Shown: piece by piece, positions 1-21,555 of the stretch
How positions within the stretch are numbered: position 1 is the stretch's first letter
Layout: each line of letters starts with the position of its first letter
Assembly: GCA_018238625.1 (NCBI GenBank)
Contig: JABCSY010000040.1
Span: forward strand, 1 to 34,679
DNA: 34,679 bases
Reading direction: 5' to 3'
Origin: Promethearchaeota archaeon
Lineage (GTDB): Archaea; Asgardarchaeota; Lokiarchaeia; Sigyniarchaeales; SOKP01
Program-made: the position numbers and the translations under genes
The notes under the pieces: generated by a model
Database searches by the model: none
What the model was told of the DNA's origin: nothing
The model's input: the letters and a program-made list of their open reading frames with translations, nothing else

Positions 1-837
1 CAAATGATTAAATGGAATGTGGATTATTTTTTCTCCCGCTCCTTCACTCTTTAATTTAAAAATTACGTCTTCCTTAATGTTAATTTTTTCAATATCAGAA
101 AATTTTATGTTAAAATCTTTTTCAAATTTCGTTATTTGATTCTTTTCAAAAAAGAAGTTTTCATAACAGAATAAGCCAAGACATATCTCCACATTTTCAG
201 AAGGAGTCACTCCTAAATCTTGCATACACCGGATCGTGTATAATTGACAAGGGGTACCTACTACCGCTAGTTTTTTGAATTTATAATGATTAAGTTCTGG
301 AATTGAATGAGTGTAAGTACTAAACTTCTGTATCTCGTCTAATTGAGGCGAAATATCCAATTTAGCTCCAGAAGATTTTATTAAATCAGGTTTGTTATCG
401 GCAAAAGCTGCTTCTCTGGAAAAAGGAGCGTCAGTTCTCGAAACAATTGCTCCATCAACCATTTTTTTTTCTACTAAATAATTTATTATTGAGTTCACTA
501 CACCGCCATCAGTCCCGTATTCTAAGAACTCCTTATCGGTAGCTTGGCAAGAATATATATCTTCATAGTATCCAATTGGCATAGAAGAGAAATCAGAGAA
601 TTTATAAGTTTTGTTGAGGTCATCGTCTAAAACATGTGTTTGTGGACAAATATAATAACATATTCCACATTCTAGGCATTTATCTTCGTTAATATATATG
701 GGAGGCGAATATTGATCTTTAAATCCAATAACATCGAATTCTGCCGAACTACAAAAAGAAACGCAGCCCCCACATTCTTGACAAATGCCTCTATCGTGTA
801 CTTCCTTTATTAGATCCTGAAACGATTTAGTGCTCAT
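1..837 (-). CDS. FrhB/FdhB-family (F420 hydrogenase/dehydrogenase beta subunit-like) protein with N-terminal 2x[4Fe-4S] ferredoxin; 3' end runs off the window
   Basis: Not in the ORF track. ATG at 837 overlaps the upstream stop, and the frame is open to position 1. Translation MSTKSFQDLIKEVHDRGICQECGGCVSFC...CLECGICYYICPQ...GTDGGVVNSII...VVGTPCQ...LGLFCYENF has the typical FrhB motifs DGG, GTPCQ and GLFC. Confidence 0.9.
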   Translation of the reverse strand, partial: MSTKSFQDLIKEVHDRGICQECGGCVSFCSSAEFDVIGFKDQYSPPIYINEDKCLECGICYYICPQTHVLDDDLNKTYKFSDFSSMPIGYYEDIYSCQATDKEFLEYGTDGGVVNSIINYLVEKKMVDGAIVSRTDAPFSREAAFADNKPDLIKSSGAKLDISPQLDEIQKFSTYTHSIPELNHYKFKKLAVVGTPCQLYTIRCMQDLGVTPSENVEICLGLFCYENFFFEKNQITKFEKDFNIKFSDIEKINIKEDVIFKLKSEGAGEKIIHIPFNHL

Positions 838-2335
838 CTTGATTCTCTTTCAAATTTATTGATTTACATTTTTTTCGTTTAATTCCACCAATTTTTTCCA
901 CTAGAAATTGGCCGGGCTTTACATCCTTTAAACTGTTAGATTCGATTAATCCTGCTTTAACTATATCGTTATATAGTTTATCTGCATCTTTCGATCTCGT
1001 TATTACAGAAGACCATCCATCTTGCGACCCAATCGATCCTACAGAAATGTCGGCGTAATCTGACGTTAGATCTTCACAAAAATGACAATTATCGCGCGCG
1101 TATTTTTGCACTTCTTTAAGAGGTACATCCATTTGCTCTCCAGATTTCAAGTTTATAATAAATTTACCGCCTCCAATATTCATTTTGGTTAGTTCGTTTA
1201 TGTCCTTGTTAAACTGTTCTTTAGCTAAATTAATTATTCCATCGTAAGGAAATGATTCCATGCAAAAAAGCCCGATTTTGTACTTGATATTATTAAAAAA
1301 GGGTAACCCACTTGGAAACATAGTCCCCTTTTCTATAGCTTTCATCATGCAAGGAACTCCTACGAAAGCTATCTTCTCGTATTTCTTACATTGATCTATG
1401 ATGGTTAAAGAAGGCGAATTTGCATATTTGGTTCCACCCGTTTTATATAAATCTTTCACATTCTCTACTATTATAGGCTCTGGTCTCCACAATTCCTCAG
1501 AGTGCTGCACAGCTACAATTGCATCGACAAGATTATTATCTAAAAGATATTCCAAGATAGAAGTTACAATACCACCATCTTGACGGACTTTCTTAATACC
1601 ATCTTTAGTCGTTGATGCTGAGTAAGCGTTAATGTAAGCTCCCGTTTTGTCAGACCATCTTAAAGATTTGTCTAACTTTTTAATGCTTTCGTTAGCTTGG
1701 TCTATCGAAAAGGAACGAGGACAGACCGAAAAACACAACCCACATTTCATGCAAACGTCTTCGTCAATTTCAAGAGTGTCTGCCGTCACTACGATGGCGT
1801 TTACAGGACAGATCGCAGAGCACCATCCACATTGACAACAGACTCCCGCGTTAAAAACTATAGAAACAGGTTCAAAATAATACTCAATAAAATCGTCTGG
1901 TAAATCTCTTACTTGGTACCTGTAAAAGAATTCCTTTACTTCAACTTCTTTTTCTTCTCCCTTGATTTTTTTTATAACCGTTTTAGTCTTGATTTCCACG
2001 TGTTCCTGAACGTATCCTTGTTCTTTTAGATAAATAACATCTCTAATAACATTTTCAGGAGGGAAGTCTTTGACGATCTTTACTATTTCTTCTAAAAATA
2101 ACGGCTTATTACCCGTTAATTCTTTTAGTACTAATTTCCGCTCAGTTTCTGCATCTATCATAGCATCAAGGATTTCGTAAAATTCGTTTTCAGAAAATTT
2201 ACCTACTTTCAATATCTCTTCTTTTGCTTCAAAAAAAGCTCTTACTTGAAAGTTTCCCGAAGCTTGATAAGTAGCTTCCATTAAGTCTTTAGGAGAGATT
2301 CCCTTAAACAACTTGCTATTTACAACTTGAACCAT
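827..2335 (-). CDS. FrhB/FdhB-family protein with ~150-aa N-terminal helical/winged-helix-like extension and a 2x[4Fe-4S] ferredoxin
   Basis: Motifs CCQCGWCSAICP, CMKCGLCFSVCP, QDGGIVTS, GGTKY, VGVPCM, IGLFCMESF and CHFCEDLTSDYADISVGSIGS. Confidence 0.9.
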   Translation of the reverse strand: MVQVVNSKLFKGISPKDLMEATYQASGNFQVRAFFEAKEEILKVGKFSENEFYEILDAMIDAETERKLVLKELTGNKPLFLEEIVKIVKDFPPENVIRDVIYLKEQGYVQEHVEIKTKTVIKKIKGEEKEVEVKEFFYRYQVRDLPDDFIEYYFEPVSIVFNAGVCCQCGWCSAICPVNAIVVTADTLEIDEDVCMKCGLCFSVCPRSFSIDQANESIKKLDKSLRWSDKTGAYINAYSASTTKDGIKKVRQDGGIVTSILEYLLDNNLVDAIVAVQHSEELWRPEPIIVENVKDLYKTGGTKYANSPSLTIIDQCKKYEKIAFVGVPCMMKAIEKGTMFPSGLPFFNNIKYKIGLFCMESFPYDGIINLAKEQFNKDINELTKMNIGGGKFIINLKSGEQMDVPLKEVQKYARDNCHFCEDLTSDYADISVGSIGSQDGWSSVITRSKDADKLYNDIVKAGLIESNSLKDVKPGQFLVEKIGGIKRKKCKSINLKENQDEH

Positions 2336-2379: not shown

Positions 2380-2436
2380 TAAAATTTAATTAAACTCCCA
2401 CCTTCGCAGGGTAAGTCATCTTATAACTAAAATTTT
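2380..2436 (-). promoter_or_regulatory. Candidate SECIS element (AUGA...GA core) in the mvhD 3' intergenic region
   Basis: Minus-strand RNA AAAAUUUUAGUUAUAAG-AUGA-CUUACCCU-GCGA-AGGUGG-GA-GUUUAAUUAAAUUUU. It is a GC-rich hairpin in an AT-rich spacer with an AUGA/GA kink-turn-like core, directly 3' of genes carrying in-frame UGAs. Folded by eye; the upper stem is imperfect. Confidence 0.65.
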
Positions 2437-2447
2437 TTTTATAAGAT

Positions 2448-2906
2448 TCATTCTTCTACGGGAGTAGTTAGTGTTTTTTGTTTTATTTTTTTAATATCCA
2501 TGCTTTTTAACGGATTGGGTCCAGATCTCTTTACCTTTTCGTACGCATCCTCGACGCTTTTAACAAACTTTTCTGCTTCAGCACTACTTAGCCAATACAT
2601 ATTAACTCTTCGACTACCGAATCCTCGCTTTTCCAAAATTCTATTAGCAAAATCAACATGTCTTTGGGCGTTAAAATTTCCTTCTTTAAACTGACATTCA
2701 TTTGGGCGTCATCCAACAACCATAACTCCGTCAGCTCCAGCTTTTATGCTATATAAGATGTGCTTTACATCGACTCTTCCAGTGCATCTTACTTTAATAA
2801 TCTTTACTGATGCTGTATATTTCATACGAGAGACCCCTGCTAAATCTGCAGCGCTGTATCCTCACTTTAAACAAGCAAATATTACAATTTTATAATTATT
2901 CTCCAT
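2448..2906 (-). CDS. mvhD: MvhD/VhuD [2Fe-2S] hydrogenase iron-sulfur subunit, selenoprotein with 2 Sec (152 aa)
   Basis: ATG at 2906, 5 nt after the hdrA stop and preceded by GAGGT. Translation MENNYKIVIFACLK-U-GYSAADLAGVSRMKY...VRCTGRVD...GADGVMVVG-U-RPNECQFKEGN...WLSSAEAEKF. UGA at 2864-2862 (U15) and 2711-2709 (U66), at conserved Cys positions of MvhD. Confidence 0.93.
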
Positions 2907-2911
2907 TCTGT

Positions 2912-4852
2912 TTAACCTCTTTCTAAAATTCCATCAATTTCAGTAAATAGTTGATAATCTCGATAATATCTAATGTCTATTGCTTGAGTGGGACAACATG
3001 TAACGCAAATCCCGCACCCATCGCAATTTATCTCGTCTACAACAGCACCTTCGTCGCCAACAACCGTAATTGCGTTTTTTGGGCATGCTTTTTCGCACCT
3101 TTTACACGAAATACAGAGCTCGTTATTAACTTCAGCGGTTATTAGTTCAATATCTATTTTTCCAGGGGCGGTTAATTCAGCTACTTTACTTGCAGCTGCA
3201 CTTGCTTGAGAAACCGAATACGCAATATTTTTTGGTCCTTGAGCAAACCCAGCTATAAAAATTCCCTTAGTATTAGTCTCTACTGGCATCAATCCAAAGT
3301 GAGCTTCTGTTAAAAATCCGTTTGTATCGACATCTAAGTTTAATACTTTAGCTATTTGCTCTGTACCTTTTGATGGTAATGCCGCTGTAGATAAAACGAC
3401 TAAATCCGCGCTAATCTTAATGATTTCGTCAGTTAAAGACGAATAAACTCGAACATTTACGTTTTTAGTCTTAGGATCTTCAGTAATTTCGCCAACCTTT
3501 CCCCGGATCATCCTAATATCAGAATCTTTAGCTCGTTGATAATATTCTTCGAATCCTTTTTCGTTCGTTCTTATGTCTATGTAACAAATGGTAATGTTCG
3601 CGTCCGGAAACTCTTCTTTAAGCAACTTTCCGTTTTTCAACGATAACATACAACAAACGCCACTACAATAAGGTCTTTCCGTGTTACGACTCCCCACGCA
3701 TTGAATAAACACAATTTCTTTAGGTTTTTTGACGTCCGAAATTCTATGGACATGACCTTCTAATGGACCATTCGGTGCTAAGATTCTTTCGAGTTGGGCT
3801 TGTTGAATCACATTTTCGAACTTTCCGTACCCGTATTCTCCAAATGGTTCGTAAATATCCCATCCAGTTGCGATTATTATCGTTCCTACATTAAACATAA
3901 CTTCTTCGGGTACTTGACTGAAATCAATGGCATCTAACTCGCAAGCATCCACACAACTAAAACATTCAACGCATACATCTCTATTAACGTCGTACAAGAA
4001 AGGTACTGCCTGTCCAAACGCTATATCAATTGCTTTTCTCACCCCTAAGTTTTCGTCAAAATAATTCGAAGTATATACCGGACACACTTCAGAACAGGCA
4101 CCACAACCATTACAATCGTTATTTACGTAACGCGGCTTCTTCTCAACGGTGATTTTATAATTTCCGACATATCCTTCAACCTCTTTCACTTCGCTATAGC
4201 TTAGAATCTCGATATTTTCGTGGCGATTGACTTCAAGCATTTTGGGTCCACAGATTCAAATTGAACAGTCGTCGGTTGGGAAGGTTCTATCTAACTGAGA
4301 CATCCTTCCTCCGATTGTGGTATTTTTCTCGACTAAATAAACTTTTATCCCTCCATTCGCTAGGTCTAATGCGGCGTTCATCCCAGCTATTCCTCCGCCA
4401 ACCACTAAGGTTGCTTTTTCAACGGGAACTGTTCTTATAGGGATGGCCTCCAAACATTTTGCTCTATTGATTCCTCCATTAACCAAGATTTTTGCTTTTT
4501 CTAAAGCTTCTTCGTTATCTTCAGTACACCAAGCACAATGTTCTCTTACATTAACCATTTGAAAAAAGTAAGGATTCGCAGCGGTCTTAGCGAGTGATGC
4601 CCTGTAAATTGGTTCGTGTGTCCTAGGCGTTCAAGCAGAAGCTACAATACAATTTAAGTTTTTTTCTTCTATATCTTTGACTATCTCGTTTTGACCGCTT
4701 TCTGTTCATAGAAAGGCATGAGTTTTAGAAATTACAACATCATCAATACCTTTAGCAAATTCTACTAACTCGTCGCAATCAACTTTACTACGTATGTTAA
4801 TTCCTCACTGGCATGAATAGTATCCAATCCGATGATTTTCAGATTTTTCCAT
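2912..4852 (-). CDS. hdrA: Heterodisulfide reductase subunit A (FAD, Fe-S), selenoprotein with 4 Sec (646 aa)
   Basis: One frame from ATG 4852 to TAA 2912 joins the two ORF-track fragments. UGA at 4807-4805 (YSCQ-U16-GINI), 4708-4706 (FL-U49-TESGQ), 4633-4631 (ASA-U74-TPRTHE) and 4258-4256 (TFPTDDCSI-U199-ICGPKM). Also GGGIAG FAD motif, IQCVGSR, YCSGVCC and two ferredoxin domains. Confidence 0.95.
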
Positions 4853-4863
4853 TTTTTTTCTTA

Positions 4864-4872
4864 CTCCACCTC
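4864..4872 (-). promoter_or_regulatory. Shine-Dalgarno-like sequence of hdrA
   Basis: GAGGTGGAG ends 11 nt before ATG 4852, supporting this upstream start. Confidence 0.6.
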
Positions 4873-7222: not shown

Positions 7223-8824
7223 ATGATTGATCCAAAACCTTCACCACAAGAAATATTTGAGAAAAGGGAGGAATTTGGGTTAGAAAATTCAATTAAATTG
7301 TTAACTGATATTGTTGAAACTGAAAAAGATTACGGTAAAAGGAAAGGAGCGGTAAAATATTTAGGATTAGTAAGTAGGGAAGTTCCCTCGCTGAAGAAAG
7401 AATGTTTTAGCACATTAGAAAATGTATTAATATCTGAAGACGGTATTGAAATTAAATGCGAAGCTGCGAAAGCTTTAGGTAAACTGAGGTTTGATAAAGC
7501 TTTAAAGCCGTTGATGTGGATATTGGAACAAAAATTGGATAATATGGAAGTTAAATTAGCTGTTTTGAAAGCTATAAAGAAAATAAAATTCGAAGAACCT
7601 CAGATAAACCTGTTTATCAATGAATTAGATTCACATTATAATTCTATTAAAGACTTTGTCAAAAACCAATTATTAAGTATAGGACCAGAAATTCTAATAA
7701 AATCGTTATTGATTTATTTAAAAAGCGAAAACATCTCAAATGAACACAAATCAGAGATAATTAAACTTATAGGATACGAATTGTCGAGCATTAACGTTTC
7801 TTTTGAGGATATTAGTTATCTAAGGGTTAAGTATCCGGAAGTTATCTCTAATTTGCTTCAAAACAAACAGCTTTTATTAGATGAAATTACTCGAATTTTA
7901 AAAGAATTAGATTCTGAATTAATGGATTCTGCGGTTTCGATTCTAAAATTATTAGGTCCTGATATTAAGCAGGATGTGATAAGATTATTACTGAGCGATG
8001 ATTTTATCGTCAAAAAGAATGCAATAACCCTTACCGGAAAATTAAAGTTAATAGATGCTGTAGATTTCTTAACACAGAATTTGGATAATATCTATAACGA
8101 AGTAAGCATAGCTACAATTGAAGCTTTGGGAGAGATCGGGGACCTTTCGGCAGTTCCCGAAATGCTAGGCATATTAGACATAGAAGATATTAGCTTCGAG
8201 TACACCGATCTGGATATGAAGCTTTACATAATAGACGCAATAAAAAAGATTTATCTGAGTAATAAAAACGCTGATTACGATTCCCTATTTTCGTACTTAA
8301 ATTCAGATAACGATACGATCAAAGAAAGCATTGCGTTTATTCTGGGAGAAATTGGAAATGAGGAATTTGTCAAACCACTAAGAAGTTTGTTAAAGAATAG
8401 AAATTTGGATGTTAAAAAAAACACAATAATCGCTCTTGGAAAAATAGGAAACATTGAACCTGTTGGCGACCTAATAGACATTTTAGAGAATCCTGAATCA
8501 TATTGGCTTATAAAAAAAGTAGCAATAGATGCTATCTATAATATTTTTCAAAGAAATTGGTATAAAGTAAAAGACGATGATGTAGAATTAAAAAGTACTT
8601 TAATTAAAGATGTTGCAATTATAATAGATTACTTAAAAAGAAGCGATGACGAAAATTTCAAAGTTAAAGTAAGTTTAATAAAATTTTTAGAAATATTTGG
8701 AGAAAAACACGCTTTAAGCGCCTTACTATTGAGAGTAAACGATTTTCCTCGAATAGTGCGCATTCATGCCTCAAATGCTATTAAAAAAATAGAAGAGAAA
8801 CTGGAACTTGAAAATGCAGAATGA
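7223..8824 (+). CDS. HEAT/PBS-lyase repeat protein
   Basis: Repeated alpha-solenoid motifs: EAAKALGKL, ATIEALGEIGD, IAFILGEIGN, TIIALGKIGN. Confidence 0.85.
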   Translation: MIDPKPSPQEIFEKREEFGLENSIKLLTDIVETEKDYGKRKGAVKYLGLVSREVPSLKKECFSTLENVLISEDGIEIKCEAAKALGKLRFDKALKPLMWILEQKLDNMEVKLAVLKAIKKIKFEEPQINLFINELDSHYNSIKDFVKNQLLSIGPEILIKSLLIYLKSENISNEHKSEIIKLIGYELSSINVSFEDISYLRVKYPEVISNLLQNKQLLLDEITRILKELDSELMDSAVSILKLLGPDIKQDVIRLLLSDDFIVKKNAITLTGKLKLIDAVDFLTQNLDNIYNEVSIATIEALGEIGDLSAVPEMLGILDIEDISFEYTDLDMKLYIIDAIKKIYLSNKNADYDSLFSYLNSDNDTIKESIAFILGEIGNEEFVKPLRSLLKNRNLDVKKNTIIALGKIGNIEPVGDLIDILENPESYWLIKKVAIDAIYNIFQRNWYKVKDDDVELKSTLIKDVAIIIDYLKRSDDENFKVKVSLIKFLEIFGEKHALSALLLRVNDFPRIVRIHASNAIKKIEEKLELENAE

Positions 8825-8951: not shown

Positions 8952-10451
8952 ATGACTGAGAATCAAACGGACAAAGAACAACCGGCTACTCAATATGATT
9001 ATTCCTTCGATTATATTCAAAAGAAGCTTGAAGGGAAAAAGGATTCTTTCGGTATGTTAATGAAAGAAATTGTGCGGGCAGGAATATGCACGGAATGCGG
9101 GACATGTGCCGCAGTTTGCCCAGTTCTCGAGTGGGACCATTTGGCAGGACAGCCTAAGTTAATAGGGAAATGTACGGGGTGTGGTATCTGCTATAACCAA
9201 TGTCCCCGAACTATAACAGACCCTATCCAACTAATGGGAGAGTTCAAAACAGGATATGTAGCGAATACAGATATCCCAGAAGTTATTGGTGGCCAAGATG
9301 GAGGAACTGTGACTTCTTTACTAATTTATTTATTTGAGGAACATTTAATTGATGCTGCAATCGTTGCAATGAGAGATCCTAGTAATCCGTGGCATCCAGT
9401 TTCTCAGATAATTACCAGTAAAGAGGACGCTATAAAAGCTTCCGGATCGATTTACTGTCATACTCAAACTGTCGAAGCGTTAATGGATGCTATACGACAA
9501 GATTATAGATCAATAGCTTTTGTTGGTACGCCTTGTAATATCGATGCCGTAGATAAGATGATGAGTTCTCCGTCGGGAATGTTAAAATATTTTATGCGCG
9601 CTCACATTCTTAAAATTGGTTTGTTTTGTATGGATTCTTTTTCTCCAGAAGCACTTTATCAATTTTTCGAAAAAGATGGGATTGACCTTTCAAAAGTAGT
9701 TAAAATGGATATTAGTAAAGGAAAATTTCACTTATATAACGACGCTAAGGGAGAACCAATAAAATCATATACCATCAAACAATTACATAAGTTTAAATCT
9801 CCAAGTTGTAATTTTTGCACAGATCTGACCGCCGAAAATGCGGATATTTCTGTTGGCTCAGTAGGTAGTGGAGCAAACAAAAACACAGTATTTGCAAGAA
9901 CTGGAATTGGATCTGAGATTATGGAAGATGCTGCTAAAAAAGGATATCTTAAAATTGAACCTTATAACGCTATAAATTTGAACGCAGTATTGTTTCTGGC
10001 TAAACTTAAAAAAGTTTCTCAATACAACATTCAAAAACGTAAGGTCTTCATCGTTAGAGATCCTATGGAGAAAGAGGGCCCGAAAATTGAGACTAAGCCT
10101 GAAGAAGAGAAACCTACTACGAAAACGCTAGGGACTAGAAAATTCTTGCGCGTATCTAAAGATGTAAATGAAAAAGAAAAGATATTAAAAATATCGTTAA
10201 CTAACAGTATAGGTTATCTTTTAGAAGACATCAAAATCAGAATCGCTATAGTCGAAGAATTATTTGAAAAGAAACCTTGGATAACTAATATTAGAGAATT
10301 ATTCCCTTATGAAACTATTGAGATAGGATATCCCTTAGAAACTGAAAACAACGAAATAATTTATGGTAATGTGTTAGTAGAGGCCTCAACTGAGGCGTTT
10401 GGAAAAGTTTTTTCAAAAACTTTTAAATTGACACCTAAAGAAAAAAAATAA
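8952..10451 (+). CDS. FrhB/FdhB-family protein with ferredoxin domain and ~130-aa C-terminal extension
   Basis: Motifs CTECGTCAAVCP, CTGCGICYNQCP, GQDGGTVTS, VGTPCN, IGLFCMDSF and CNFCTDLTAENADISVGSVGS. Confidence 0.9.
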   Translation: MTENQTDKEQPATQYDYSFDYIQKKLEGKKDSFGMLMKEIVRAGICTECGTCAAVCPVLEWDHLAGQPKLIGKCTGCGICYNQCPRTITDPIQLMGEFKTGYVANTDIPEVIGGQDGGTVTSLLIYLFEEHLIDAAIVAMRDPSNPWHPVSQIITSKEDAIKASGSIYCHTQTVEALMDAIRQDYRSIAFVGTPCNIDAVDKMMSSPSGMLKYFMRAHILKIGLFCMDSFSPEALYQFFEKDGIDLSKVVKMDISKGKFHLYNDAKGEPIKSYTIKQLHKFKSPSCNFCTDLTAENADISVGSVGSGANKNTVFARTGIGSEIMEDAAKKGYLKIEPYNAINLNAVLFLAKLKKVSQYNIQKRKVFIVRDPMEKEGPKIETKPEEEKPTTKTLGTRKFLRVSKDVNEKEKILKISLTNSIGYLLEDIKIRIAIVEELFEKKPWITNIRELFPYETIEIGYPLETENNEIIYGNVLVEASTEAFGKVFSKTFKLTPKEKK

Positions 10452-12984
10452 CATTAGAATACCTCTCTCTTGCCCGTTTTCTCCTCAAGCCTTCTGGAAT
10501 CTGATTATTTTCAAGATCTAATATTTGTAGATTAAAGAGGGATTCTAATCCCTTGATCTCGGTAATCCGATTATTCATAAGATGTAACTTTTGTAGGTTA
10601 GCGAGGGATTCTAAACCCTTGATCTCGGTAATCTTATTATAATTAAGATTTAATTCTTGTAGATTAGCGAGGGATTCCAAGCCCTTGATCTCGGTAATCA
10701 GATTACTATAAATATCTAATCTTTGTAGATTAAAGAGGGATTCCAAACCCTTGATCTCGGTAATCTGATTTTTATTAAGACGTAACCATTTTAGATTAGC
10801 GAGGGATTCTAAACCCTCGATCTCGGTAATCTGATTATTTTTAAAACATAAATATTGTAGATTAGTGAGGGATTCCAAGCCCTTGATCTTGGTAATCTGA
10901 TTATTTTCAAGATGTAAATATTGTAGATTAGCGAGGGATTCCAAGCCCTTGATCTTGGTAATCTGATTACTATCAAGAAGTAACCTTTGTAGATTAGCGA
11001 GGGATTCCAAGCCCTTGATCTCGGTAATCTGATTACAATCAAGACGTAAAATTTGTAGATTAGCGAGGGATTCCAAGCCCTCGATCTCGGTAATCTGATT
11101 AACTTCAAGATATAGCGCTTCTAAATTAGTCAAGGTTTCCAAGCCCTTGATCTTGGTAATCTGATTACCAGTAAGAGATAGCTCTTCTAAATTAGTCAAG
11201 GTTTCCAAGCCCTTGATCTTGGTAATCGGATTACCACCAAGATATAATGTTTGTAGATTAGCGAGGGATTCCAAACCCTTGATCTTGGTAATCGGATTAC
11301 CACCAAGATATAATGTTTGTAGATTAGCGAGGGATTCCAAACCCTTGATCTCGGTAATCTGATTACTAAAAAGACTTAAATCTTGTAGATTAGTCAAGGT
11401 TTCCAAACCCTTGATCTCGGTAATCTGATTACGAAAAAGACTTAAATATTGTAGATTAGTCAAGGTTTCCAAACCCTTGATCTCGGTAATCTTGTTCCGA
11501 TCAAGAAGTAACTTTTGCAGATTTGCAAGGGATTTCAAGCCCTTGATCTTGGTAATCTGATTATCCTGAAGATCTAATGTTTGTAGATTAGCGAGGGATT
11601 CCAAGCCCTTAACATCGGAAATCTTTTTAATATTCATACTTGAAAGGCCCAAAAATCCATCTTTCTTAACCTCAATCTTTTTTCCGTAAACCCTAACAAA
11701 TTGCGAATCTTTTTTTTTTTTTTTTTTTTTTCTAATGTTAGTATTTAATATAGAATTTTTTGTCTCTGGAGGTATATCATCCAAATCCTCATCTAATAGT
11801 AATTTCTTAGCAGTTTCTACATTATCTAACCTAGCTTCATCAGATAAATTACTTAAATTTAGAATTCCAACTTCTTCTTCAGCCACAATTCTCTCTTTTG
11901 GGTATTCCTTTTCTCTCTTCTTAACTTGAGTGATTATTTCATCTAAGATTTTGGTTTTATAATATCTGTCAGTTATCTCAACACCACTCTCTTTTAATAT
12001 CGTAAGTTGAGCTTTTGCTTCCTCACTCAGCAATGTTTGATTAATAATCAGGTTCTTTAAGGATGATAAGTTTGAAAGAGATTTCGGTAGCATTTTTATA
12101 GGATTCTCGCTTAAATTTAGTATTTCAAGATTTTTTAAATCGCCAATTATTTCGGGGATCTCTTCTATCTGGTTTTTGCTTAAGTCTAATTCCAATAAAT
12201 TTTTGAGATTACCAATAAATTTAGGGATTTGTTTAATCATTTTTTCCGAAAATAAGGAAGGACTTATCTTAAGAATTTTAAGAGCTTTCAGATTACCTAT
12301 AAACTCTGGGACTTGCGATAATGCAATATACTCATAATCCAGCCATAATAAGGAAGTAAAATGTTCTATTACTTTGGGGATATATATAGATTTATAGAAT
12401 TTCATAGTAAGACCAATTACTCTAGTATTTTCTACAAAAGCTTTAAGTGAAGCATACATAAATTTCAATCTATCATTCATCCCAACAATTACAAATTGAG
12501 CGGGATCTACGCTTTCCATCTCTTCAAGGAAATTAACTTCACTTTGAAGCAAAGCTCTTCCCCTAAAATTCACAATCTTATCGGGATCCTTACTCTTATT
12601 TACGATTTTTGTGTGAGAGAGGAAAGGCTCAAATTCATAAAAATTACTAAAAGCAGCATTTTCTGGCCATATAATTAATGAATGTCCCTCTGAAATACGA
12701 TGAGTAATAAAATTAAATATTTCGTCTTCATGAATATCCGTTTCTGGACCAGTATCGTCAAGAAAATAATCTTCATGATGTTTTAGTTCAAAATAGGATA
12801 ATTGGATTTCGTTCTCTTCCTTAGTTAAGTAAACCTTTCTTATTTGAGAGGGATGAGTGATTCCTACATTCGCTAATTCTTCTTTTAATATAGAGATAGA
12901 AGGATGTGGGGGTGAGTACCCACAATACCGACAGAATTTATATCCAATATCCCATTTCTCATTACATGATTCACATTTTTTCAT
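10435..12984 (-). CDS. Leucine-rich repeat protein: N-terminal zinc ribbon, central LRR block and C-terminal SDS22-like LRR array
   Basis: CESC...CRYC at the N-terminus, IPEIIGDLKNLEILNLSENPI-type repeats, then ~17 22-aa repeats LQxLxLxxNQITEIKGLESLAN. Confidence 0.92.
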   Translation of the reverse strand: MKKCESCNEKWDIGYKFCRYCGYSPPHPSISILKEELANVGITHPSQIRKVYLTKEENEIQLSYFELKHHEDYFLDDTGPETDIHEDEIFNFITHRISEGHSLIIWPENAAFSNFYEFEPFLSHTKIVNKSKDPDKIVNFRGRALLQSEVNFLEEMESVDPAQFVIVGMNDRLKFMYASLKAFVENTRVIGLTMKFYKSIYIPKVIEHFTSLLWLDYEYIALSQVPEFIGNLKALKILKISPSLFSEKMIKQIPKFIGNLKNLLELDLSKNQIEEIPEIIGDLKNLEILNLSENPIKMLPKSLSNLSSLKNLIINQTLLSEEAKAQLTILKESGVEITDRYYKTKILDEIITQVKKREKEYPKERIVAEEEVGILNLSNLSDEARLDNVETAKKLLLDEDLDDIPPETKNSILNTNIRKKKKKKKDSQFVRVYGKKIEVKKDGFLGLSSMNIKKISDVKGLESLANLQTLDLQDNQITKIKGLKSLANLQKLLLDRNKITEIKGLETLTNLQYLSLFRNQITEIKGLETLTNLQDLSLFSNQITEIKGLESLANLQTLYLGGNPITKIKGLESLANLQTLYLGGNPITKIKGLETLTNLEELSLTGNQITKIKGLETLTNLEALYLEVNQITEIEGLESLANLQILRLDCNQITEIKGLESLANLQRLLLDSNQITKIKGLESLANLQYLHLENNQITKIKGLESLTNLQYLCFKNNQITEIEGLESLANLKWLRLNKNQITEIKGLESLFNLQRLDIYSNLITEIKGLESLANLQELNLNYNKITEIKGLESLANLQKLHLMNNRITEIKGLESLFNLQILDLENNQIPEGLRRKRARERYSNVIFFL
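10498..11610 (-). repeat. Coding tandem repeat, ~17 x 66 bp
   Basis: Recurrent + strand unit tgtagattagcgagggattccaagcccttgatctcggtaatctgatt at a 66-bp period. Confidence 0.95.
11710..11731 (-). repeat. 22-nt homopolymer (A22 on the coding strand) inside the LRR gene
   Basis: T run from 11710 to 11731, encoding R-KKKKKKK in frame. Confidence 0.9.
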
Positions 12985-13119: not shown

Positions 13120-15000
13120 TTATTTTATTTTATCTTTTTTAAACCTTGGTTTTTTACAAGAACATTTATTATTTTTATCGATTAAATTATTGCAATATGG
13201 AATAAAGTTTGTAGCATCCAAATCCATTACTGAACTTATAATTTTTGGAGATATATTCTCATACTTCTCTTCTCGATATTCTTTCTTTTTTTTTAAATAT
13301 CTTTCCCATGATTTTTCGAAATCCTGTTTTATTATTTTCAAACTCTTTTTGAAATTTGGATGTAAATATTTTTCAACTAATTTGTTAAGTTTCTTAAAAT
13401 TTATTTTCTTCCAATCACCATATTTAGGAAGATACTCATAAATATTATGAACCCAATCGAAATCACATAAACGAGACTTAGCTAATTCGATAGAATCTTG
13501 ATTCCAATTTAAGAATTGCAAATCATTTAAAATTTCAGAATCGTTATTTTTTGTACTATTACATAAAATTCTCAGAAACTTTTTTATTATATTTTTTCCT
13601 TCTTCTGCATGTACAGATGCGTGAGTGTGATAAGTGTAAGAGACATCTTTACCGCGATCAACTTTTCTTTTTTTGGGAAGGAACAAAAAATTAAATATTT
13701 CATCGTTTTCCTTTACCATATCAGAATGATGAAAGATAGCTGTATTTTCAGTACTAATATAATTCAAATCTCGAAGATGTGAAACTAAATCATAATCATC
13801 AAAGGAGAAACCGAGTGTTTGAAGGAATCGTAAAATTCTTACTTCAATAGATTTATAATTATTACCATATTTTTCTTTTACTTCCATATTTCGTCTTCTT
13901 GCTTTCTCAGATGTTTTCCTAATCTCCTCATTATAATAATCTAAATAATCTTTATAACCTACTAATGCTACCTCAGACTTATCATTATCTTTAATAGATT
14001 GAATGAACGGAAATATATTATTTTCTAAGGTTTGGGATTTAAAATAATAATTAATTTCTGATAAATTGTCTAACGCAACGTTTACTTTACCTTCAAACAT
14101 TCCTGTAATTTTCAAAAGTTTTCTTAAATTAAGATTTGAACATTTTAGCAGAATATTAACAAGGTTTACTTCCTCTTTGTTTTTATTTTTTTTAAGAAAA
14201 CTCAGAATTTCTTCATCTAATATTTTTCTATTTTTTAATCTTCGTTTTAAATACTTTTCAGCAATTACCACTCTATTTTCATATAAAGAAAGTAATCTTT
14301 GCGTACTTCCTATTCCTAATAAAGCTCTTAAATTATTCAAACTTGCATAAGTCACTTGATTACCAGAACGCACTTTATATGTTAATTCAAATTCATCTTT
14401 AAAGAAATGAATTAATATAGCTCCAATATATTTAGGATGATATAAATTATAATCTCCTTTATAAATAATATCATTTATATCAAATTTACTAATTTCAAAT
14501 TTATTAAAATACTCGTAAAGCTCTTTTGCTCTATTTTTTAGTTCAATTTTAAATTCTTCAGATAAACTTATATTAAAGTTTATGGAAAGTTTGTTAAGCA
14601 AATCTTCAAAATATTGAAATATTTTATTTTTAAATTCATTTATATTAAGTGAAATCCTTTTACAATAATTATTATAATATTTACTAAATGTATCATCATT
14701 TATAGAAAGTAATTTTGAATATTTAGTTTTATTCAAGATGAGTGTATCTAAATCTTTATAAAACATTAAATGCATGAATAGGCTCACGGCAGAAGCATAA
14801 ATAGGATTCTTTAATCCTAAGTATGTGTAAAGTTTATTCTTCTTAAAAAAATTAATAATTTTCTCACTATCTATCATTCCTATGATTTTAAAATCAGCCG
14901 AATTCATTAAACATTTGATGTGTATATTCAAATTAGTTTTAAATTTCTCATCAAATGTTAAATTTTCTATAAAAGAATCAAAATTATTATTACTATCCAT
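13120..15000 (-). CDS. Hypothetical protein with possible cyclin/TFIIB-like helical repeats and an HNH-like motif
   Basis: 626-aa ORF, very AT-rich. IFHHSDMVKENDEIFNFLFL...HTHASVH resembles HNH. KNPIYASAVSLF and YHPKYIGAILIHF resemble TFIIB/cyclin box helices. Confidence 0.55.
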   Translation of the reverse strand: MDSNNNFDSFIENLTFDEKFKTNLNIHIKCLMNSADFKIIGMIDSEKIINFFKKNKLYTYLGLKNPIYASAVSLFMHLMFYKDLDTLILNKTKYSKLLSINDDTFSKYYNNYCKRISLNINEFKNKIFQYFEDLLNKLSINFNISLSEEFKIELKNRAKELYEYFNKFEISKFDINDIIYKGDYNLYHPKYIGAILIHFFKDEFELTYKVRSGNQVTYASLNNLRALLGIGSTQRLLSLYENRVVIAEKYLKRRLKNRKILDEEILSFLKKNKNKEEVNLVNILLKCSNLNLRKLLKITGMFEGKVNVALDNLSEINYYFKSQTLENNIFPFIQSIKDNDKSEVALVGYKDYLDYYNEEIRKTSEKARRRNMEVKEKYGNNYKSIEVRILRFLQTLGFSFDDYDLVSHLRDLNYISTENTAIFHHSDMVKENDEIFNFLFLPKKRKVDRGKDVSYTYHTHASVHAEEGKNIIKKFLRILCNSTKNNDSEILNDLQFLNWNQDSIELAKSRLCDFDWVHNIYEYLPKYGDWKKINFKKLNKLVEKYLHPNFKKSLKIIKQDFEKSWERYLKKKKEYREEKYENISPKIISSVMDLDATNFIPYCNNLIDKNNKCSCKKPRFKKDKIK

Positions 15001-15194: not shown

Positions 15195-16115
15195 GTGAAA
15201 TGTACTATTAAAATAAGTTTAGTTGGCTTAGGCGGTTGCGGTAAGACAAGTCTTTACTCCGTAGCGTTTGCTGAAAAAACGCCCGAAGACACAAAAAGAC
15301 TTAGCCCGACAATCCTTTATGAAACTCGAAGACATCCGTTTCTGGGCTTACAGGTTGGGATTTTCGACTTTGGGGGTCAAGAGCAGTACCGTAAGGAGTA
15401 TATGGAAAAGCCCGAAGTATTTCGAGGAACGGATATTTTGATTTGTATCGTTGATTTACACGACCCAAATTCCTTCGATCAAGCAAAAGAATATTTTGAG
15501 GGATTGTTGGATATACATCGTAAAAACAACGAGAAGCCGAAAATCTTTTTATTCCTACATAAATACGATACTGAAGATTACCAGAAAGAATTACTTGATA
15601 CTAACGTAAAGAACGCTAAGGAAGTCTTCTTGGATATATTTAAAGATTACGATTTTGATTATATGTTGACGAGCATTTATCAACAAGACGAATTAGCCAA
15701 AGTTTTTCGGGATATATTAATTTCGTCATATAAAGATTTGAAAAAATCCGTAGAAAAAGCTGAAAGCCAATTAGAAGAAATTAAAGCAAAAATAATTATT
15801 TCTGATGTTTCTGGAAATGTCATAGTTCATAACGTTCAAGGTGTAAGCAGTGGTTTAACGCTTCGTGGAGATCTAAGAGACTTCATCGACGCGTGTAATA
15901 CGGTAAGAGAAAACATCTTTATGTCTGATTCTGCTCAATTTAAAGGGTTGAACGAGGACGGAAAAGAAATCGAGCTCCACATCTTTAAATACATTATTTC
16001 GGTACTCGTAATGAAAACAGGAGAGTTGGATAGAGACTCTCAAGATAAATTAAATGTATTGTTAAAAGATATGTCTCTCTTTGCAGATTTGATCATCTCT
16101 GCGCATTCGGATTGA
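15195..16115 (+). CDS. Small GTPase, Rag/Gtr-like, with C-terminal roadblock/longin-like domain
   Basis: G1 GLGGCGKTS, G2 SPT, G3 DFGGQ, G4 HKYD, G5 TSIY. C-terminal IIISDVSGNVIVH strand pattern. Confidence 0.85.
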   Translation: MKCTIKISLVGLGGCGKTSLYSVAFAEKTPEDTKRLSPTILYETRRHPFLGLQVGIFDFGGQEQYRKEYMEKPEVFRGTDILICIVDLHDPNSFDQAKEYFEGLLDIHRKNNEKPKIFLFLHKYDTEDYQKELLDTNVKNAKEVFLDIFKDYDFDYMLTSIYQQDELAKVFRDILISSYKDLKKSVEKAESQLEEIKAKIIISDVSGNVIVHNVQGVSSGLTLRGDLRDFIDACNTVRENIFMSDSAQFKGLNEDGKEIELHIFKYIISVLVMKTGELDRDSQDKLNVLLKDMSLFADLIISAHSD

Positions 16116-17372: not shown

Positions 17373-18005
17373 TTATCCATAAAATAAGATATATAACTCG
17401 TTATAAAGCTCCGCAAGTTTGGAGATTCTATATGGATCGTTTTCTTGTAATGAATGGAGGAGATAAGAAGTTAAACCTTGAGGATTATTAATCCAATCAA
17501 CAAATCCTTCCACCTCCGCCTTGAGATATGGATCGATTGTAGGTTGTACCATACTACTACTTTTTGCGATAATTTCGTTCTCAACGGAAACATCTACTTC
17601 AGTCTCAACAAATTGTGACTTTGATCCTTTTTTCATCATAGCTGCTGCTCTCGTAACTGCGGGATACGCCATATGTATCCACCCCTTTGCTTTAGGTTTG
17701 ATATGAGCTATGATATATAGGTCGCTACCAAATATCGATGAGCCAACTAAGTGTCCTTTTTTCTTTCTATTAGTTGCTATAAATCTTTCGGGTGACATTT
17801 GAAGTACTGAATATCTGATACCGTTCATATTCACAAATTGGGCGCTGCCACTACCCCAACTAGCTAAGACAGTCTTAATATCTTTCGATACGCTCCAATT
17901 ACTAGTGGAATAAATGACCTTCCCTTTATTGCCAACAACTACTACTTCATTTGCGTCAGAATAATGTTTTTGCAAATTTTTAACAATAGACTTATAATTT
18001 ACCAT
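17373..18005 (-). CDS. Asgard profilin-like protein with ~85-aa C-terminal extension
   Basis: GKVIYSTSNWSV and GIRYSVLQMSPERFIATNRKKKGHLV resemble, from memory, the Loki profilin motifs (TxNW; GIKY...ER..TN..KGH). Confidence 0.7.
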   Translation of the reverse strand: MVNYKSIVKNLQKHYSDANEVVVVGNKGKVIYSTSNWSVSKDIKTVLASWGSGSAQFVNMNGIRYSVLQMSPERFIATNRKKKGHLVGSSIFGSDLYIIAHIKPKAKGWIHMAYPAVTRAAAMMKKGSKSQFVETEVDVSVENEIIAKSSSMVQPTIDPYLKAEVEGFVDWINNPQGLTSYLLHSLQENDPYRISKLAELYNELYILFYG

Positions 18006-18028
18006 AGTCAGATACCAATTTTAACTAA

Positions 18029-20479: not shown

Positions 20480-20621
20480 AAATTCTCGAATCTAAAATTT
20501 AAACTTATCTCCCAATTTTAATTAGGTATTAAATGTTCTCAAAGCAATTAATGGACTCCTATAATGATATTAAATGACAAAAAATATATTAAGTAACGAA
20601 ATCAAAAAAGGATATATAAAA

Positions 20622-21368
20622 ATGTCAAATATGGATGTTAGAAAAGATTTCTACGAATTTGGGAGAAATATGCAAATTGTAGCAATTTGTACCGTTTTAA
20701 GTATAGCAACTGGTGTGACGGGCTTAATAGCGTTAATCTTTATATTTATTGCTTTGGGAAATATCAAAAACGCAAATCTTAAATTAAATAACGAATATTT
20801 AAAGCAATTTCGTTCGAAATATATTAGGGCTTTCATTTTAAGAATATGTGGTACGATCGTGTTGATAGTAGGAGTTATAAATATTTTATTTGGTGTATAT
20901 ATGCCGATGGATATCACTTCTTATTGGATAACCGTTTCTATAAGCATTATTGTTATTACATCTGGTTTAGTATTTATGATAACAAGTGTATTTGCTGAAA
21001 TAAAAGCATGGAAAAATTTGAAGCGATTCTTTGAAGAAAATAGGAGTATGTTTCCAGATAACCTTTATTTTGAATTAATTGAGGGGTGCGATAAGTTAAA
21101 AACGGCTACCTTATTGAACGCGTTATTTTTTTTAATAATCACTATAATAATTGGATTTATATATCAAATTATAGGATATTTTAAATTAGCAAAATTGAAC
21201 AACTTGATGTTATATGATGTTCCAAAAACATCGCCGACACAAGTGATCTTACCGGAGTCTCGATCAAGTGGCATAAACGAAGTAGCAAGCAATTTTTGCC
21301 CAAATTGTGGAAGCAAATTATCCGGATTAGGAAAATTCTGTCCCTTATGCGGTTCGGATATTAGGTAA
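20622..21368 (+). CDS. Membrane protein with C-terminal zinc ribbon; paralog of 24240..24965
   Basis: Multiple hydrophobic helices and CPNCG...CPLCG. Start at ATG 20622 chosen by alignment to the paralog (MSNMDVRKDFYEFG vs MVKVDVSIEFSEFG). Confidence 0.85.
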   Translation: MSNMDVRKDFYEFGRNMQIVAICTVLSIATGVTGLIALIFIFIALGNIKNANLKLNNEYLKQFRSKYIRAFILRICGTIVLIVGVINILFGVYMPMDITSYWITVSISIIVITSGLVFMITSVFAEIKAWKNLKRFFEENRSMFPDNLYFELIEGCDKLKTATLLNALFFLIITIIIGFIYQIIGYFKLAKLNNLMLYDVPKTSPTQVILPESRSSGINEVASNFCPNCGSKLSGLGKFCPLCGSDIR

Positions 21369-21436
21369 TACATGAATAAAAACTATTCTTTTTTTATTTT
21401 ATATAATTATTCTATAGCCCTAAAAAAATTAACTTC

Positions 21437-21538: not shown

Positions 21539-21555
21539 CACAATAACACAAGTTA

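What the first reader, a model, noticed from the sequence alone, without database searches (positions are those of the whole stretch)
2912..4852. HdrA hidden by four in-frame UGA codons: a multi-selenocysteine flavoprotein
Seen: one frame from an SD-preceded ATG (4852) to TAA (2912), interrupted only by four TGA codons (U16, U49, U74, U199). Established: these align with HdrA Cys motifs (CxCG, xCS, AACSPR, DCSxC). The DCSIU site is the classical Sec of methanococcal HdrA, and Sec-HdrA is known in Lokiarchaeota. Inference: three further Sec fall among the ligands of the N-terminal-domain [4Fe-4S] cluster, giving a mostly Se-ligated cluster. Two apparent extra Cys (HCAWC for usual HCSWVH; U-ICGPKM) suggest further remodelling. 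Gene callers split this gene and lose the first ~98 aa.
Basis: partly seen in the sequence, partly recalled or inferred. Interest (0 to 1): 0.85.

Follow-up and report, generated by a model that had tools for sequence, protein, structure and literature searches.

The report
Known multi-selenocysteine HdrA–VhuD gene pair
This is a real heterodisulfide-reductase subunit A gene whose four in-frame UGA codons most likely encode selenocysteine, followed by a two-selenocysteine VhuD gene and one shared recoding hairpin; the arrangement was described for Lokiarchaeota in 2016 and is the commonest form among its relatives.

Summary
Window 4852..2912 (-) is one 646-codon frame ending in TAA, broken only by TGA at codons 16, 49, 74 and 199. 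It aligns end to end with solved HdrA structures (E 4e-198), and each TGA falls on a Cys or on the known Sec.

Five bases downstream lies a VhuD/MvhD gene with two more TGA at the classical Sec sites. A Loki-type SECIS hairpin overlaps its UGA stop.

In 63 Asgard species-representative loci, TGA occupies site 16 in 62 of 62, site 74 in 63 of 63 and site 199 in 63 of 63. Site 49 is TGA in 44 and TGT/TGC in 19. All 17 Bathyarchaeia homologues have Cys codons at all four sites. The SECIS pattern sits at the same place in 60 of 60 sequences, with compensatory changes.

Mariotti et al. 2016 (PMC4989117) reported Loki HdrA with up to four Sec, and one SECIS serving up to six UGA. The window's four-Sec pattern is the majority state (41 of 61 full-length loci).

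The only fresh angle is an inference: three of the four invariant N-domain Cys positions, probably the ligands of the HA3 shuttle cluster, are Sec here.

The parts
2912..4852 (-). hdrA coding sequence, 646 codons plus TAA, read with TGA = Sec at codons 16, 49, 74 and 199
   Evidence: translation; full-length match to HdrA 9sfi_A at 4e-198 and 5odc_A at 4e-195. NCBIfam HdrA2 2e-233, below the curated cut-off.
4864..4872 (-). Shine-Dalgarno-like GAGGTGGAG, 11 nt upstream of the hdrA ATG
   Evidence: Read from the sequence printed. Not tested further.
4805..4807 (-). UGA codon 16, the second Cys of the CxCG motif in the N-terminal domain
   Evidence: TGA in 62 of 62 Asgard loci that cover it; TGT/TGC in 17 of 17 Bathyarchaeia.
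4706..4708 (-). UGA codon 49 in the N-terminal domain
   Evidence: TGA in 44 and TGT/TGC in 19 of 63 Asgard loci; Cys in 17 of 17 Bathyarchaeia.
4631..4633 (-). UGA codon 74, in the AAC(S/T)P motif of the N-terminal domain
   Evidence: TGA in 63 of 63 Asgard loci; Cys in 17 of 17 Bathyarchaeia.
4256..4258 (-). UGA codon 199, the canonical HdrA Sec position in the local motif C196-x-x-U199-x-C201
   Evidence: aligned to X in 9sfi_A and Cys in 5odc_A. TGA in 63 of 63 Asgard loci. Sec197 in M. maripaludis (PMC13518236).
2448..2906 (-). vhuD/mvhD-like gene of 152 codons, starting 5 nt after the hdrA stop. UGA at codon 15 (2864-2862) and codon 66 (2711-2709); stop UGA at 2450-2448
   Evidence: translation; 9sfi_K 5e-39, with X at both sites; U15 = Cys16 and U66 = Cys67 of 9sw2_D. 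TGA at site 15 in 61 of 61 loci and at site 66 in 59 of 59.
2416..2451 (-). Loki-type SECIS. AUGA at 2451-2448, whose UGA is the vhuD stop; 9-bp stem 2447-2439 / 2426-2418; 12-nt A-rich loop 2438-2427; GA at 2417-2416
   Evidence: the hairpin is in both the MFE and the centroid structure; 9 of 9 pairs, and the same pattern in 60 of 60 sequences; compensatory changes. Matches the lokiSECIS description in PMC4989117.
2392..2415 (-). Second small conserved hairpin (CCYY-GCR-RRGG type) followed by G-run and U-run. Possibly a terminator, or the eaSECIS-like element mentioned in PMC11227280
   Evidence: aligned in 58 distinct sequences; alifold gave no consensus structure. Function not established.
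827..2335 (-). FrhB/FdhB-like iron-sulfur flavoprotein gene (502 aa), the conserved downstream neighbour
   Evidence: FrhB_FdhB_N/C plus Fer4; found downstream on the same strand in 58 loci, 547-643 nt after the hdrA stop.
1..837 (-). Second FrhB/FdhB-like gene, which runs off the window
   Evidence: 56 loci have a downstream match to it, about 40 at 65% identity or more; the weaker matches fall on the first FrhB-like gene.

Best explanation
The region is a selenoprotein gene pair of a Lokiarchaeia-type Asgard archaeon. It holds hdrA (four Sec) and vhuD (two Sec), probably on one transcript, with a single eukaryote-like (kink-turn type) SECIS hairpin at the 3' end.

How it most likely works. 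The SECIS, with the archaeal Sec elongation factor and Sec-tRNA, recodes six UGA codons lying 258 to 2356 nt upstream. The UGA inside the SECIS core is too close to be recoded, so it terminates vhuD. hdrA itself ends in TAA, so it is not read through.

The product is a flavin- and iron-sulfur-containing HdrA with its VhuD adaptor. The conserved FrhB-like neighbours suggest that an FrhB-type module feeds electrons, rather than a [NiFe] hydrogenase.

Within the protein:
- Sec199 with Cys196 is the CxxC/CxxU pair next to the bifurcating FAD.
- Sec16, Sec49 and Sec74 with Cys14 are the four invariant N-domain positions. They most likely ligate the mobile low-potential 'shuttle' [4Fe-4S] cluster HA3.
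- VhuD Sec15 is the equivalent of the 'additional' MvhD Cys16 that faces the HdrA CxxC pair.

Shown here: the frame, the homology, TGA/Cys alternation, SECIS conservation and synteny. Inferred: actual Sec insertion, a single transcript, cluster ligation, and the electron donor.
For: Frame and TGA positions.

Homology: full-length alignment to solved HdrA, with every TGA on a Cys or Sec.

Relatives:
- 63 Asgard loci at 75-94% identity keep TGA at site 16 (62 of 62), site 74 (63 of 63) and site 199 (63 of 63).
- Site 49 is TGA in 44 and TGT/TGC in 19.
- 17 of 17 Bathyarchaeia have Cys codons at all four sites.
- 16 of 16 full-length database relatives carry W at 16, 74 and 199, and W (7) or C (9) at 49. 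They were presumably called with a TGA = Trp code.

Selection: differences per site at codon positions 1, 2 and 3 are 0.175, 0.086 and 0.500 upstream of U199, against 0.146, 0.066 and 0.492 downstream. The part before the TGAs is under the same coding constraint.

vhuD: present 3-22 nt downstream, or overlapping by 11 nt, in 61 of 63 Asgard loci; the other two loci end before it. TGA at site 15 in 61 of 61 and at site 66 in 59 of 59. The hdrA stop is TAA or TAG in 61 of 61.

SECIS: pattern found in 60 of 60 sequences, with its UGA serving as the vhuD stop in 45 of 60. Among 34 distinct stems, 289 of 306 cells are paired, against a shuffle mean of 259 and maximum of 270. T-A/C-G or A-T/G-C exchanges occur at stem pairs 2, 4, 6 and 7.

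TGA is still a stop elsewhere: 2 of 22 complete ORFs in the window end in TGA. Reading TGA as a residue materially changes only hdrA and vhuD.

Literature (passages read): PMC4989117, PMC11227280, PMC13518236, PMC13580544, PMC9012536.
Against: - No Sec machinery can be seen. The window has no tRNA at all, and the rest of the genome was not available.
- Rfam gives no SECIS match.
- Folding energies of the 3' region are not better than shuffles (z -0.91; z -1.05).
- My loose SECIS pattern is not specific on its own: 3 hits in the window against 2.1 expected. The support is position and conservation, not the pattern.
- There is no protein-level evidence.
- Cluster ligation by Sec16, Sec49 and Sec74 rests on conservation and on secondary descriptions of the structures. 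PMC4989117, written before the structure, stated that these positions are not cluster ligands.
- The sources disagree on residue 197. PMC9012536 calls it a ligand of the N-domain cluster from the partner subunit. PMC13518236 and PMC13580544 describe a Cys-Sec or Cys-Cys pair holding an unidentified density.
- My AlphaFold2 model was too poor to use (mean pLDDT 50.3).
Confidence: 0.92

Rival explanations
1. The three N-terminal Sec residues are not iron-sulfur ligands. They are free redox-active (catalytic) selenols, as Mariotti et al. 2016 suggested, and HA3 is held by other residues.
For: [quoted passage not shown] Other Cys exist in the N-domain: C26, C106 and C109. Recent structures show non-ligand Cys/Sec pairs near the FAD.
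Against: That statement predates the 2017 structure and assumed four clusters. Later papers place a [4Fe-4S] cluster (HA3/A3) in the N-terminal domain. C26 is Ile or Val in 17 of 17 Bathyarchaeia. C106 is Ser in 15 of 17 Bathyarchaeia and Asp in 9sfi_A. C109 is Val in 5odc_A, 9sfi_A and 3 Asgard loci. Only positions 14, 16, 49 and 74 are invariant, which is exactly four positions for one cubane.
Confidence: 0.2
2. UGA is read in this lineage as something other than Sec (Cys, Trp or general read-through), or the code is reassigned.
For: Sixteen database relatives were called full length with W at these sites. No Sec machinery is visible in the window.
Against: TGA ends 2 of 22 other complete ORFs in the window and also ends vhuD. 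TGA occurs in-frame only at Cys-aligned positions and alternates only with TGT/TGC. A conserved SECIS sits at the expected place. A complete Sec machinery is reported for Lokiarchaeota (PMC4989117), and the Sec trait for 85.9% of Lokiarchaeia/Helarchaeales genomes (PMC11227280).
Confidence: 0.03
3. The gene is a decaying pseudogene, or the TGAs are assembly errors.
For: Standard gene callers split it.
Against: The same TGAs recur in 62-63 independent assemblies at 75-94% identity. Third-position changes dominate upstream of the TGAs just as they do downstream. There are no TAA or TAG codons in 646 codons.
Confidence: 0.01

Closest known systems
Lokiarchaeota multi-Sec HdrA / VhuD tandem pairs with one lokiSECIS (Mariotti et al. 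2016, PMC4989117; extended to Asgard archaea in PMC11227280)
   Same: - HdrA with up to four Sec, including the canonical one, all on conserved Cys.
- vhuD directly downstream on the same strand, with two Sec.
- A single SECIS after vhuD: AUGA, 9-bp stem, A-rich apical loop, GA.
- hdrA never ends in UGA.
- Up to six UGA over about 2 kb.
All of this is seen here.
   Different: The apical loop is 12 nt here, against 11 nt in the paper and in 57 of 60 of my sequences. I could not read their Fig. 3 or supplement to confirm that their five positions are 16, 49, 74, 199 and about 613. Their text denies cluster ligation for the N-terminal sites. I think that view is outdated.
Methanococcus maripaludis HdrA (Sec197) and VhuD (two Sec), PDB 9sfi chains A and K
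   Same: Full-length homology (4e-198 and 5e-39). Sec at the canonical HdrA site and at both VhuD sites.
   Different: The methanococcal HdrA has Cys at the three N-domain sites and Leu where the window has C201. It has Asp/Val at positions 106/109. It works with the Vhu hydrogenase and HdrBC. Neither hdrBC nor hydrogenase genes are in this window.
All-Cys HdrA of Methanothermococcus thermolithotrophicus (5odc_A) and of Bathyarchaeia (loci L064-L080)
   Same: Same domain order and the same 26 conserved Cys positions.
   Different: Cys codons at all four sites. Bathyarchaeia have Glu at 201 and no vhuD within about 900 nt downstream in 16 of 17 loci. Identity is 46-52%.

Membership tests
HdrA (heterodisulfide reductase subunit A family) | End-to-end sequence homology with structurally characterised HdrA | tested here: met
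   residues 7-644 match 9sfi_A 4-651 (4e-198). 5odc_A, 8rvu_a and 7bkb_A also match over the full length.
HdrA (heterodisulfide reductase subunit A family) | Conserved Cys set for six [4Fe-4S] clusters plus the CxxC pair (26 positions), and an FAD-binding Rossmann motif | tested here: met
   positions 14, 16, 49, 74, 196, 199, 247-257, 294-304, 385-401, 580-590 and 610-620 are Cys or Sec in every locus that covers them. FAD/NAD-binding domain hits at residues 146-245. The assignment of positions to clusters is partly from recall and from secondary sources.
HdrA (heterodisulfide reductase subunit A family) | Score above the NCBIfam equivalog cut-offs for methanogen HdrA/HdrA2 | tested here: not met
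   776.9 bits against a cut-off of 1100 (HdrA2), 599.8 against 1300, and 599.2 against 1400. The match covers model positions 1-642 of 777. This is a family member, not an equivalog of the methanogen enzymes.
HdrA (heterodisulfide reductase subunit A family) | Partner genes hdrB/hdrC for heterodisulfide reduction | tested here: not met
   no HdrB/HdrC-type domains among 23 ORFs of the window. The rest of the genome was not available.
Loki-type multi-Sec HdrA-VhuD unit (Mariotti 2016) | In-frame UGA at conserved Cys positions, including the canonical one, with Cys in homologues | tested here: met
Loki-type multi-Sec HdrA-VhuD unit (Mariotti 2016) | vhuD immediately downstream on the same strand with two Sec; hdrA stop not UGA | tested here: met
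   (5-nt gap, U15 and U66); 61 of 61 hdrA stops are TAA or TAG.
Loki-type multi-Sec HdrA-VhuD unit (Mariotti 2016) | A single lokiSECIS after vhuD: AUGA, 9-bp stem, 11-nt loop beginning with A's, GA | tested here: met
   The window has 9 of 9 pairs, a loop beginning AAAAAA, and GA. The loop is 12 nt rather than 11. No second conserved SECIS-like hairpin lies inside hdrA: the one near codon 16 is not conserved.
Selenoprotein (any) | Sec machinery in the same genome (tRNA-Sec, PSTK, SepSecS, SelD, Sec elongation factor) | not testable with these tools
   no tRNA in the window. The machinery is reported for the lineage in PMC4989117 and PMC11227280.
Selenoprotein (any) | Selenium in the protein | not testable with these tools
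   Needs proteomics or 75Se labelling.
VhuD/MvhD | Homology to solved MvhD/VhuD, with Sec at the two classical sites | tested here: met
   9sfi_K at 5e-39, with X aligned to U15 and U66. 5odc_D and 9sw2_D have Cys there.

The most novel reading that the evidence does not exclude
In this and most Lokiarchaeia-type HdrA, the mobile low-potential shuttle cluster HA3 is a natural [4Fe-4S] cluster held by three selenolates and one thiolate (Sec16, Sec49, Sec74, Cys14).

All six Sec of the HdrA-VhuD pair lie on the path that hands electrons between the VhuD [2Fe-2S] cluster, the CxxU(xC) site, the bifurcating FAD and HA3. On this reading, selenium tunes the bifurcation hand-over itself rather than a substrate-facing active site.

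This contradicts the 2016 statement that these Sec are not cluster ligands. I did not find it stated in six literature searches. The library is limited to open papers. The Mariotti supplement, Wagner 2017 and Appel 2021 were unreadable.
Probability: 0.6. Interest if true: 0.55.

Novelty: already known. Interest (0 to 1): 0.25.

Why it matters
As a gene-level finding it adds nothing. Multi-Sec HdrA sharing one SECIS with VhuD has been in print since 2016, and it is the majority state among 61 full-length Asgard relatives examined here.

It still has practical value in two ways.

First, it shows how badly such genes are annotated. Of the 120 best database hits listed, 97 are 441-446 aa stubs, and 16 are read with Trp at the Sec sites. 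Metabolic reconstructions of Asgard archaea can therefore miss or mis-size HdrA.

[quoted passage not shown] An enzyme that puts Sec at that pair, at the facing VhuD residue and at three of the four probable HA3 ligands is a natural probe. Selenium is visible to EXAFS and anomalous scattering. The 19 natural Cys49 variants, and the all-Cys Bathyarchaeia homologues, provide built-in controls.

Tried and rejected
- Rfam at gathering and at E-value thresholds found no SECIS or other credible RNA family.
- Single-sequence folding of the 3' region gave energies no better than shuffles, so folding energy was not used as evidence. I first took the second AUGA-led hairpin (2430..2385) for the SECIS. 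The conserved one is the first hairpin, which overlaps the vhuD stop.
- A loose SECIS pattern search over the whole window gave 3 hits against 2.1 expected from shuffles, so the pattern alone is uninformative.
- One of those hits starts at the UGA of codon 16 (4808..4773) and could have been a bacterial-style local SECIS. In 63 relatives the same register pairs only 5-8 of 9 positions, so I reject it as chance.
- My first translation of the downstream gene was off by one base. It was corrected.
- The AlphaFold2 model from a 17-sequence alignment was poor (mean pLDDT 50.3, pTM 0.35), and no coordinates are exposed. It could not be used to measure Cys geometry. No fold search was run.
- alifold on the second downstream element returned no consensus structure.
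- Wagner et al. 2017 and Appel et al. 2021 are not held. The Mariotti 2016 supplement is too large to read. The exact HA3 ligands in the crystal structure therefore remain unread. Anything I say about Wagner 2017 comes from secondary sources or recall.
- Papers read that gave nothing useful on the ligands: bioRxiv 10.1101/2024.09.26.615249, PMC8097209, PMC7289024.
- Not run: complex prediction, protein atlas, representative search. None would have changed the verdict.
Full report
**Observation.** Translating window 4852..2912 on the minus strand gives 646 residues and a TAA. The only interruptions are TGA at codons 16, 49, 74 and 199. In this frame there are no TAG codons and only the terminal TAA. 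The other two frames of the same stretch hold 54 and 61 stops, in a window of 33% G+C. An SD-like GAGGTGGAG lies 11 nt before the ATG. Under table 11 the gene breaks into a 442-aa ORF (residues 205-646) and a 100-aa ORF (residues 99-198), and residues 1-98 are lost.

**Identity.** The read-through protein matches solved HdrA chains over its full length: 9sfi_A at 4e-198, 5odc_A at 4e-195, and also 8rvu_a and 7bkb_A. In the printed alignments:
- U16 lies on the second Cys of CxCG.
- U49 lies on the Cys of (F/Y)MCAD.
- U74 lies on AAC(T/S)P.
- U199 lies on the position that is X (Sec) in the M. maripaludis chain and Cys in M. thermolithotrophicus.

Pfam finds the FAD/NAD Rossmann region and the two ferredoxin-type regions. 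NCBIfam ranks HdrA2 and HdrA first (2e-233, 7.5e-180), but all below their curated cut-offs, and the match covers only positions 1-642 of 777. So this is a member of the HdrA family, not an equivalog of the methanogen enzymes.

**Relatives.** A protein search listed 120 best hits:
- 16 are 645-660 aa at 76-94% identity.
- 97 are 441-446 aa, that is, the piece after U199. One of them is 100% identical to the window's.
- 6 are longer than 1000 aa, and one is 421 aa.

The 16 full-length proteins carry W at 16, 74 and 199 (16 of 16 each), and W (7) or C (9) at 49. This is what a caller using a TGA = Trp code would print.

One scan of species-representative genomes with that alignment returned 80 loci: 63 Asgard ('Promethearchaeota' and related names, 75-94% identity) and 17 Bathyarchaeia (46-52%). 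Codon tables from my scripts show, in the Asgard loci:

| Site | TGA | TGT/TGC |
|---|---|---|
| 16 | 62 of 62 (L047 does not reach it) | 0 |
| 49 | 44 of 63 | 19 of 63 |
| 74 | 63 of 63 | 0 |
| 199 | 63 of 63 | 0 |

All 17 Bathyarchaeia have TGT/TGC at all four sites.

Among the 61 full-length Asgard loci:
- 41 have exactly the window's four TGA.
- 16 have three TGA (16, 74, 199).
- 3 have five TGA (the extra one at 297, 300 or 613).
- 1 has TGA at 16, 74, 199 and 613.

The window therefore shows the commonest state.

Differences per site between the window and these loci at codon positions 1, 2 and 3 are 0.175, 0.086 and 0.500 for residues 1-198, and 0.146, 0.066 and 0.492 for residues 205-646. 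The part a gene caller throws away evolves as coding sequence.

**The rest of the unit.** Five bases after the hdrA TAA starts a 152-codon VhuD/MvhD homologue (2906..2448) with TGA at codons 15 and 66 and a TGA stop. It matches M. maripaludis VhuD (9sfi_K, 5e-39), which has X at both sites. It also matches MvhD of 5odc and 9sw2, where U15 = Cys16, U66 = Cys67, R67 = His68 and E70 = Asp71.

The vhuD stop is the UGA of an AUGA. That AUGA is followed by a perfect 9-bp stem, a 12-nt loop beginning with six A, and GA (2451..2416). RNAfold places this hairpin in both the MFE and the centroid structure. This is the lokiSECIS as described by Mariotti et al. 2016: AUGA, 9-bp stem, 11-nt loop starting with A's, GA, only downstream of VhuD, sometimes using its UGA as the stop (PMC4989117, passages).

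Across the loci:
- vhuD follows hdrA in 61 of 63 Asgard loci; the other two end at hdrA.
- TGA is at site 15 in 61 of 61 and at site 66 in 59 of 59.
- The hdrA stop is TAA or TAG in 61 of 61.
- The SECIS pattern is found in 60 of 60 sequences (the window plus 59 loci that reach the vhuD end).
- Its UGA is the vhuD stop in 45 of 60.
- The loop is 11 nt in 57, 12 nt in 2 and 10 nt in 1. The 3' core is GA in 52 and AA in 8.
- Among 34 distinct stems, 289 of 306 cells pair, against a mean of 259 and a maximum of 270 in 1000 column shuffles. T-A/C-G or A-T/G-C exchanges occur at stem pairs 2, 4, 6 and 7.

Against this evidence:
- Folding energies are no better than shuffles.
- Rfam has no match.
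- My loose pattern occurs 3 times in the window against 2.1 expected.

The evidence is therefore place and conservation, not the pattern itself.

**Rivals.**
- *Global reassignment of TGA* is unlikely. Two of 22 complete ORFs in the window end in TGA. Reading TGA as a residue lengthens only hdrA and vhuD materially.
- *A pseudogene or assembly error* is excluded by the recurrence of the same TGAs in 62-63 independent assemblies and by the codon-position pattern.
- *Sec machinery* could not be checked. PMC4989117 reports a complete machinery for Lokiarchaeota. PMC11227280 reports the Sec trait in 85.9% of Lokiarchaeia/Helarchaeales genomes.

**Context.** The two genes downstream are FrhB/FdhB-like iron-sulfur flavoproteins. 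A homologue of the first one follows vhuD on the same strand in 58 loci, 547-643 nt after the hdrA stop. That includes every Asgard locus with enough downstream DNA. No HdrB/HdrC or hydrogenase domains occur among the window's 23 large ORFs. I infer an FrhB-type electron-input module. This is loosely comparable with the F420-dependent Elp module that binds Hdr through an MvhD homologue (PMC12350162, one legend passage). It is not tested.

**What the Sec residues do.** Over the 80 loci, 26 positions are Cys or Sec in every locus that covers them:
- eight in each ferredoxin-type region;
- four at 385-401;
- the pair 196/199;
- exactly four in the N-terminal domain: 14, 16, 49 and 74.

The other N-domain Cys are dispensable somewhere. 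C26 is Ile or Val in Bathyarchaeia. C106 is Ser in 15 of 17 Bathyarchaeia and Asp in 9sfi_A. C109 is Val in both methanogen structures and in 3 Asgard loci.

The N-terminal domain carries one [4Fe-4S] cluster, HA3/A3. [quoted passage not shown] Four invariant positions for one cubane make Cys14, Sec16, Sec49 and Sec74 the likely ligands.

It is still an inference, for two reasons:
- I could not read the primary structure paper.
- Chadwick et al. say one ligand of this cluster is Cys197 of the partner subunit (PMC9012536). The 2026 cryo-EM papers instead describe Cys/Sec197 and its CxxC partner as holding an unidentified density or selenylsulfide between the clusters and FAD. They describe MvhD Cys16, which is our VhuD U15, as an 'additional' Cys facing it.

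Either way, at least five of the six Sec sit at or next to the flavin hand-over, not at a substrate site.

Mariotti et al. wrote in 2016 that the Sec sites are not cluster ligands. That was before the N-domain cluster was known.

**Extra cysteines.** C201 makes the local motif C-x-x-U-x-C. It is present in 63 of 63 Asgard loci, is Glu in 17 of 17 Bathyarchaeia and is Leu in both methanogen structures. Its role is unknown. A third ligand for whatever the Cys/Sec pair binds, or a resolving Cys, are guesses.

**Comparison and novelty.** Every defining feature of the published Loki HdrA-VhuD unit is met. The only departure is a loop of 12 nt instead of 11. [quoted passage not shown] Here there are six UGA, the farthest 2356 nt from the SECIS. 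PMC11227280 counts HdrA and FrhD/VhuD as the most abundant Asgard selenoprotein sequences. The finding is therefore already known and ordinary for its lineage.

What I did not find in print is the re-reading of the three N-terminal Sec as HA3 ligands (searches; open-access library only; supplements unreadable). That is a modest, testable point.

**Limits.**
- No genome beyond the window.
- No structure coordinates. The AlphaFold2 model was poor.
- Ligand assignments come from secondary sources.
- The loci are species representatives picked by two peptide patterns and capped at the best 80 of 527 confirmed relatives. Frequencies describe that set only.

Noticed in passing
window 1..2335 (-); loci L001-L063 downstream of vhuD: hdrA-vhuD is followed by two FrhB/FdhB-like iron-sulfur flavoprotein genes. 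The first is conserved on the same strand in 58 loci. There are no hdrBC or hydrogenase genes in the window. This suggests an FrhB-type electron-input module for this HdrA.
   Followed up: partly
L042 (codon 297), L010 (codon 300), L041 and L051 (codon 613), in window HdrA numbering: Further in-frame TGA at Cys of the ferredoxin-type CxxCxxCxxxC motifs. This gives five-Sec HdrA genes and at least seven Sec positions in the family. Positions 297 and 300 occur in one locus each and could be errors.
   Followed up: partly
window 4250..4252 (-), residue C201: A third Cys two residues after the canonical Sec (C-x-x-U-x-C). It is present in 63 of 63 Asgard loci, is Glu in 17 of 17 Bathyarchaeia and is Leu in 5odc_A and 9sfi_A. 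Role unknown.
   Followed up: partly
window 2392..2415 (-): A second short conserved hairpin (CCYY / RRGG with a GCR loop) and a G/U-run lie right after the SECIS in nearly all loci. The 3' GA of the SECIS core is itself part of a second AUGA. It may be a terminator, or the 'eaSECIS-like' element that PMC11227280 mentions as co-localised.
   Followed up: partly
proteins P0003-P0018: Public full-length predictions of this HdrA carry Trp at the Sec sites. They were evidently called under a TGA = Trp code on short contigs. Most other predictions are 441-446 aa stubs named '4Fe-4S binding protein'.
   Followed up: yes
window 2427..2438 (-): The SECIS apical loop is 12 nt in the window, against 11 nt in 57 of 60 sequences. 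The closest relatives, L001-L004, have 11.
   Followed up: no
window 8952..10451 (+): A third FrhB/FdhB-like gene (499 aa) lies on the other strand, a few kb from the operon.
   Followed up: no
window 15195..16115 (+), 10435..12984 (-), 7223..8824 (+): A Gtr1/RagA-family small GTPase, an 849-aa leucine-rich-repeat protein and a HEAT-repeat protein. This eukaryote-like gene content fits an Asgard origin. The GTPase and HEAT genes are the two ORFs in the window that end in TGA.
   Followed up: no
window 13120..15000 (-), 17373..19399 (-), 20574..22895 (+): Five sizeable ORFs (626, 210, 456, 264 and 394 aa) have no Pfam match at E <= 1e-5.
   Followed up: no
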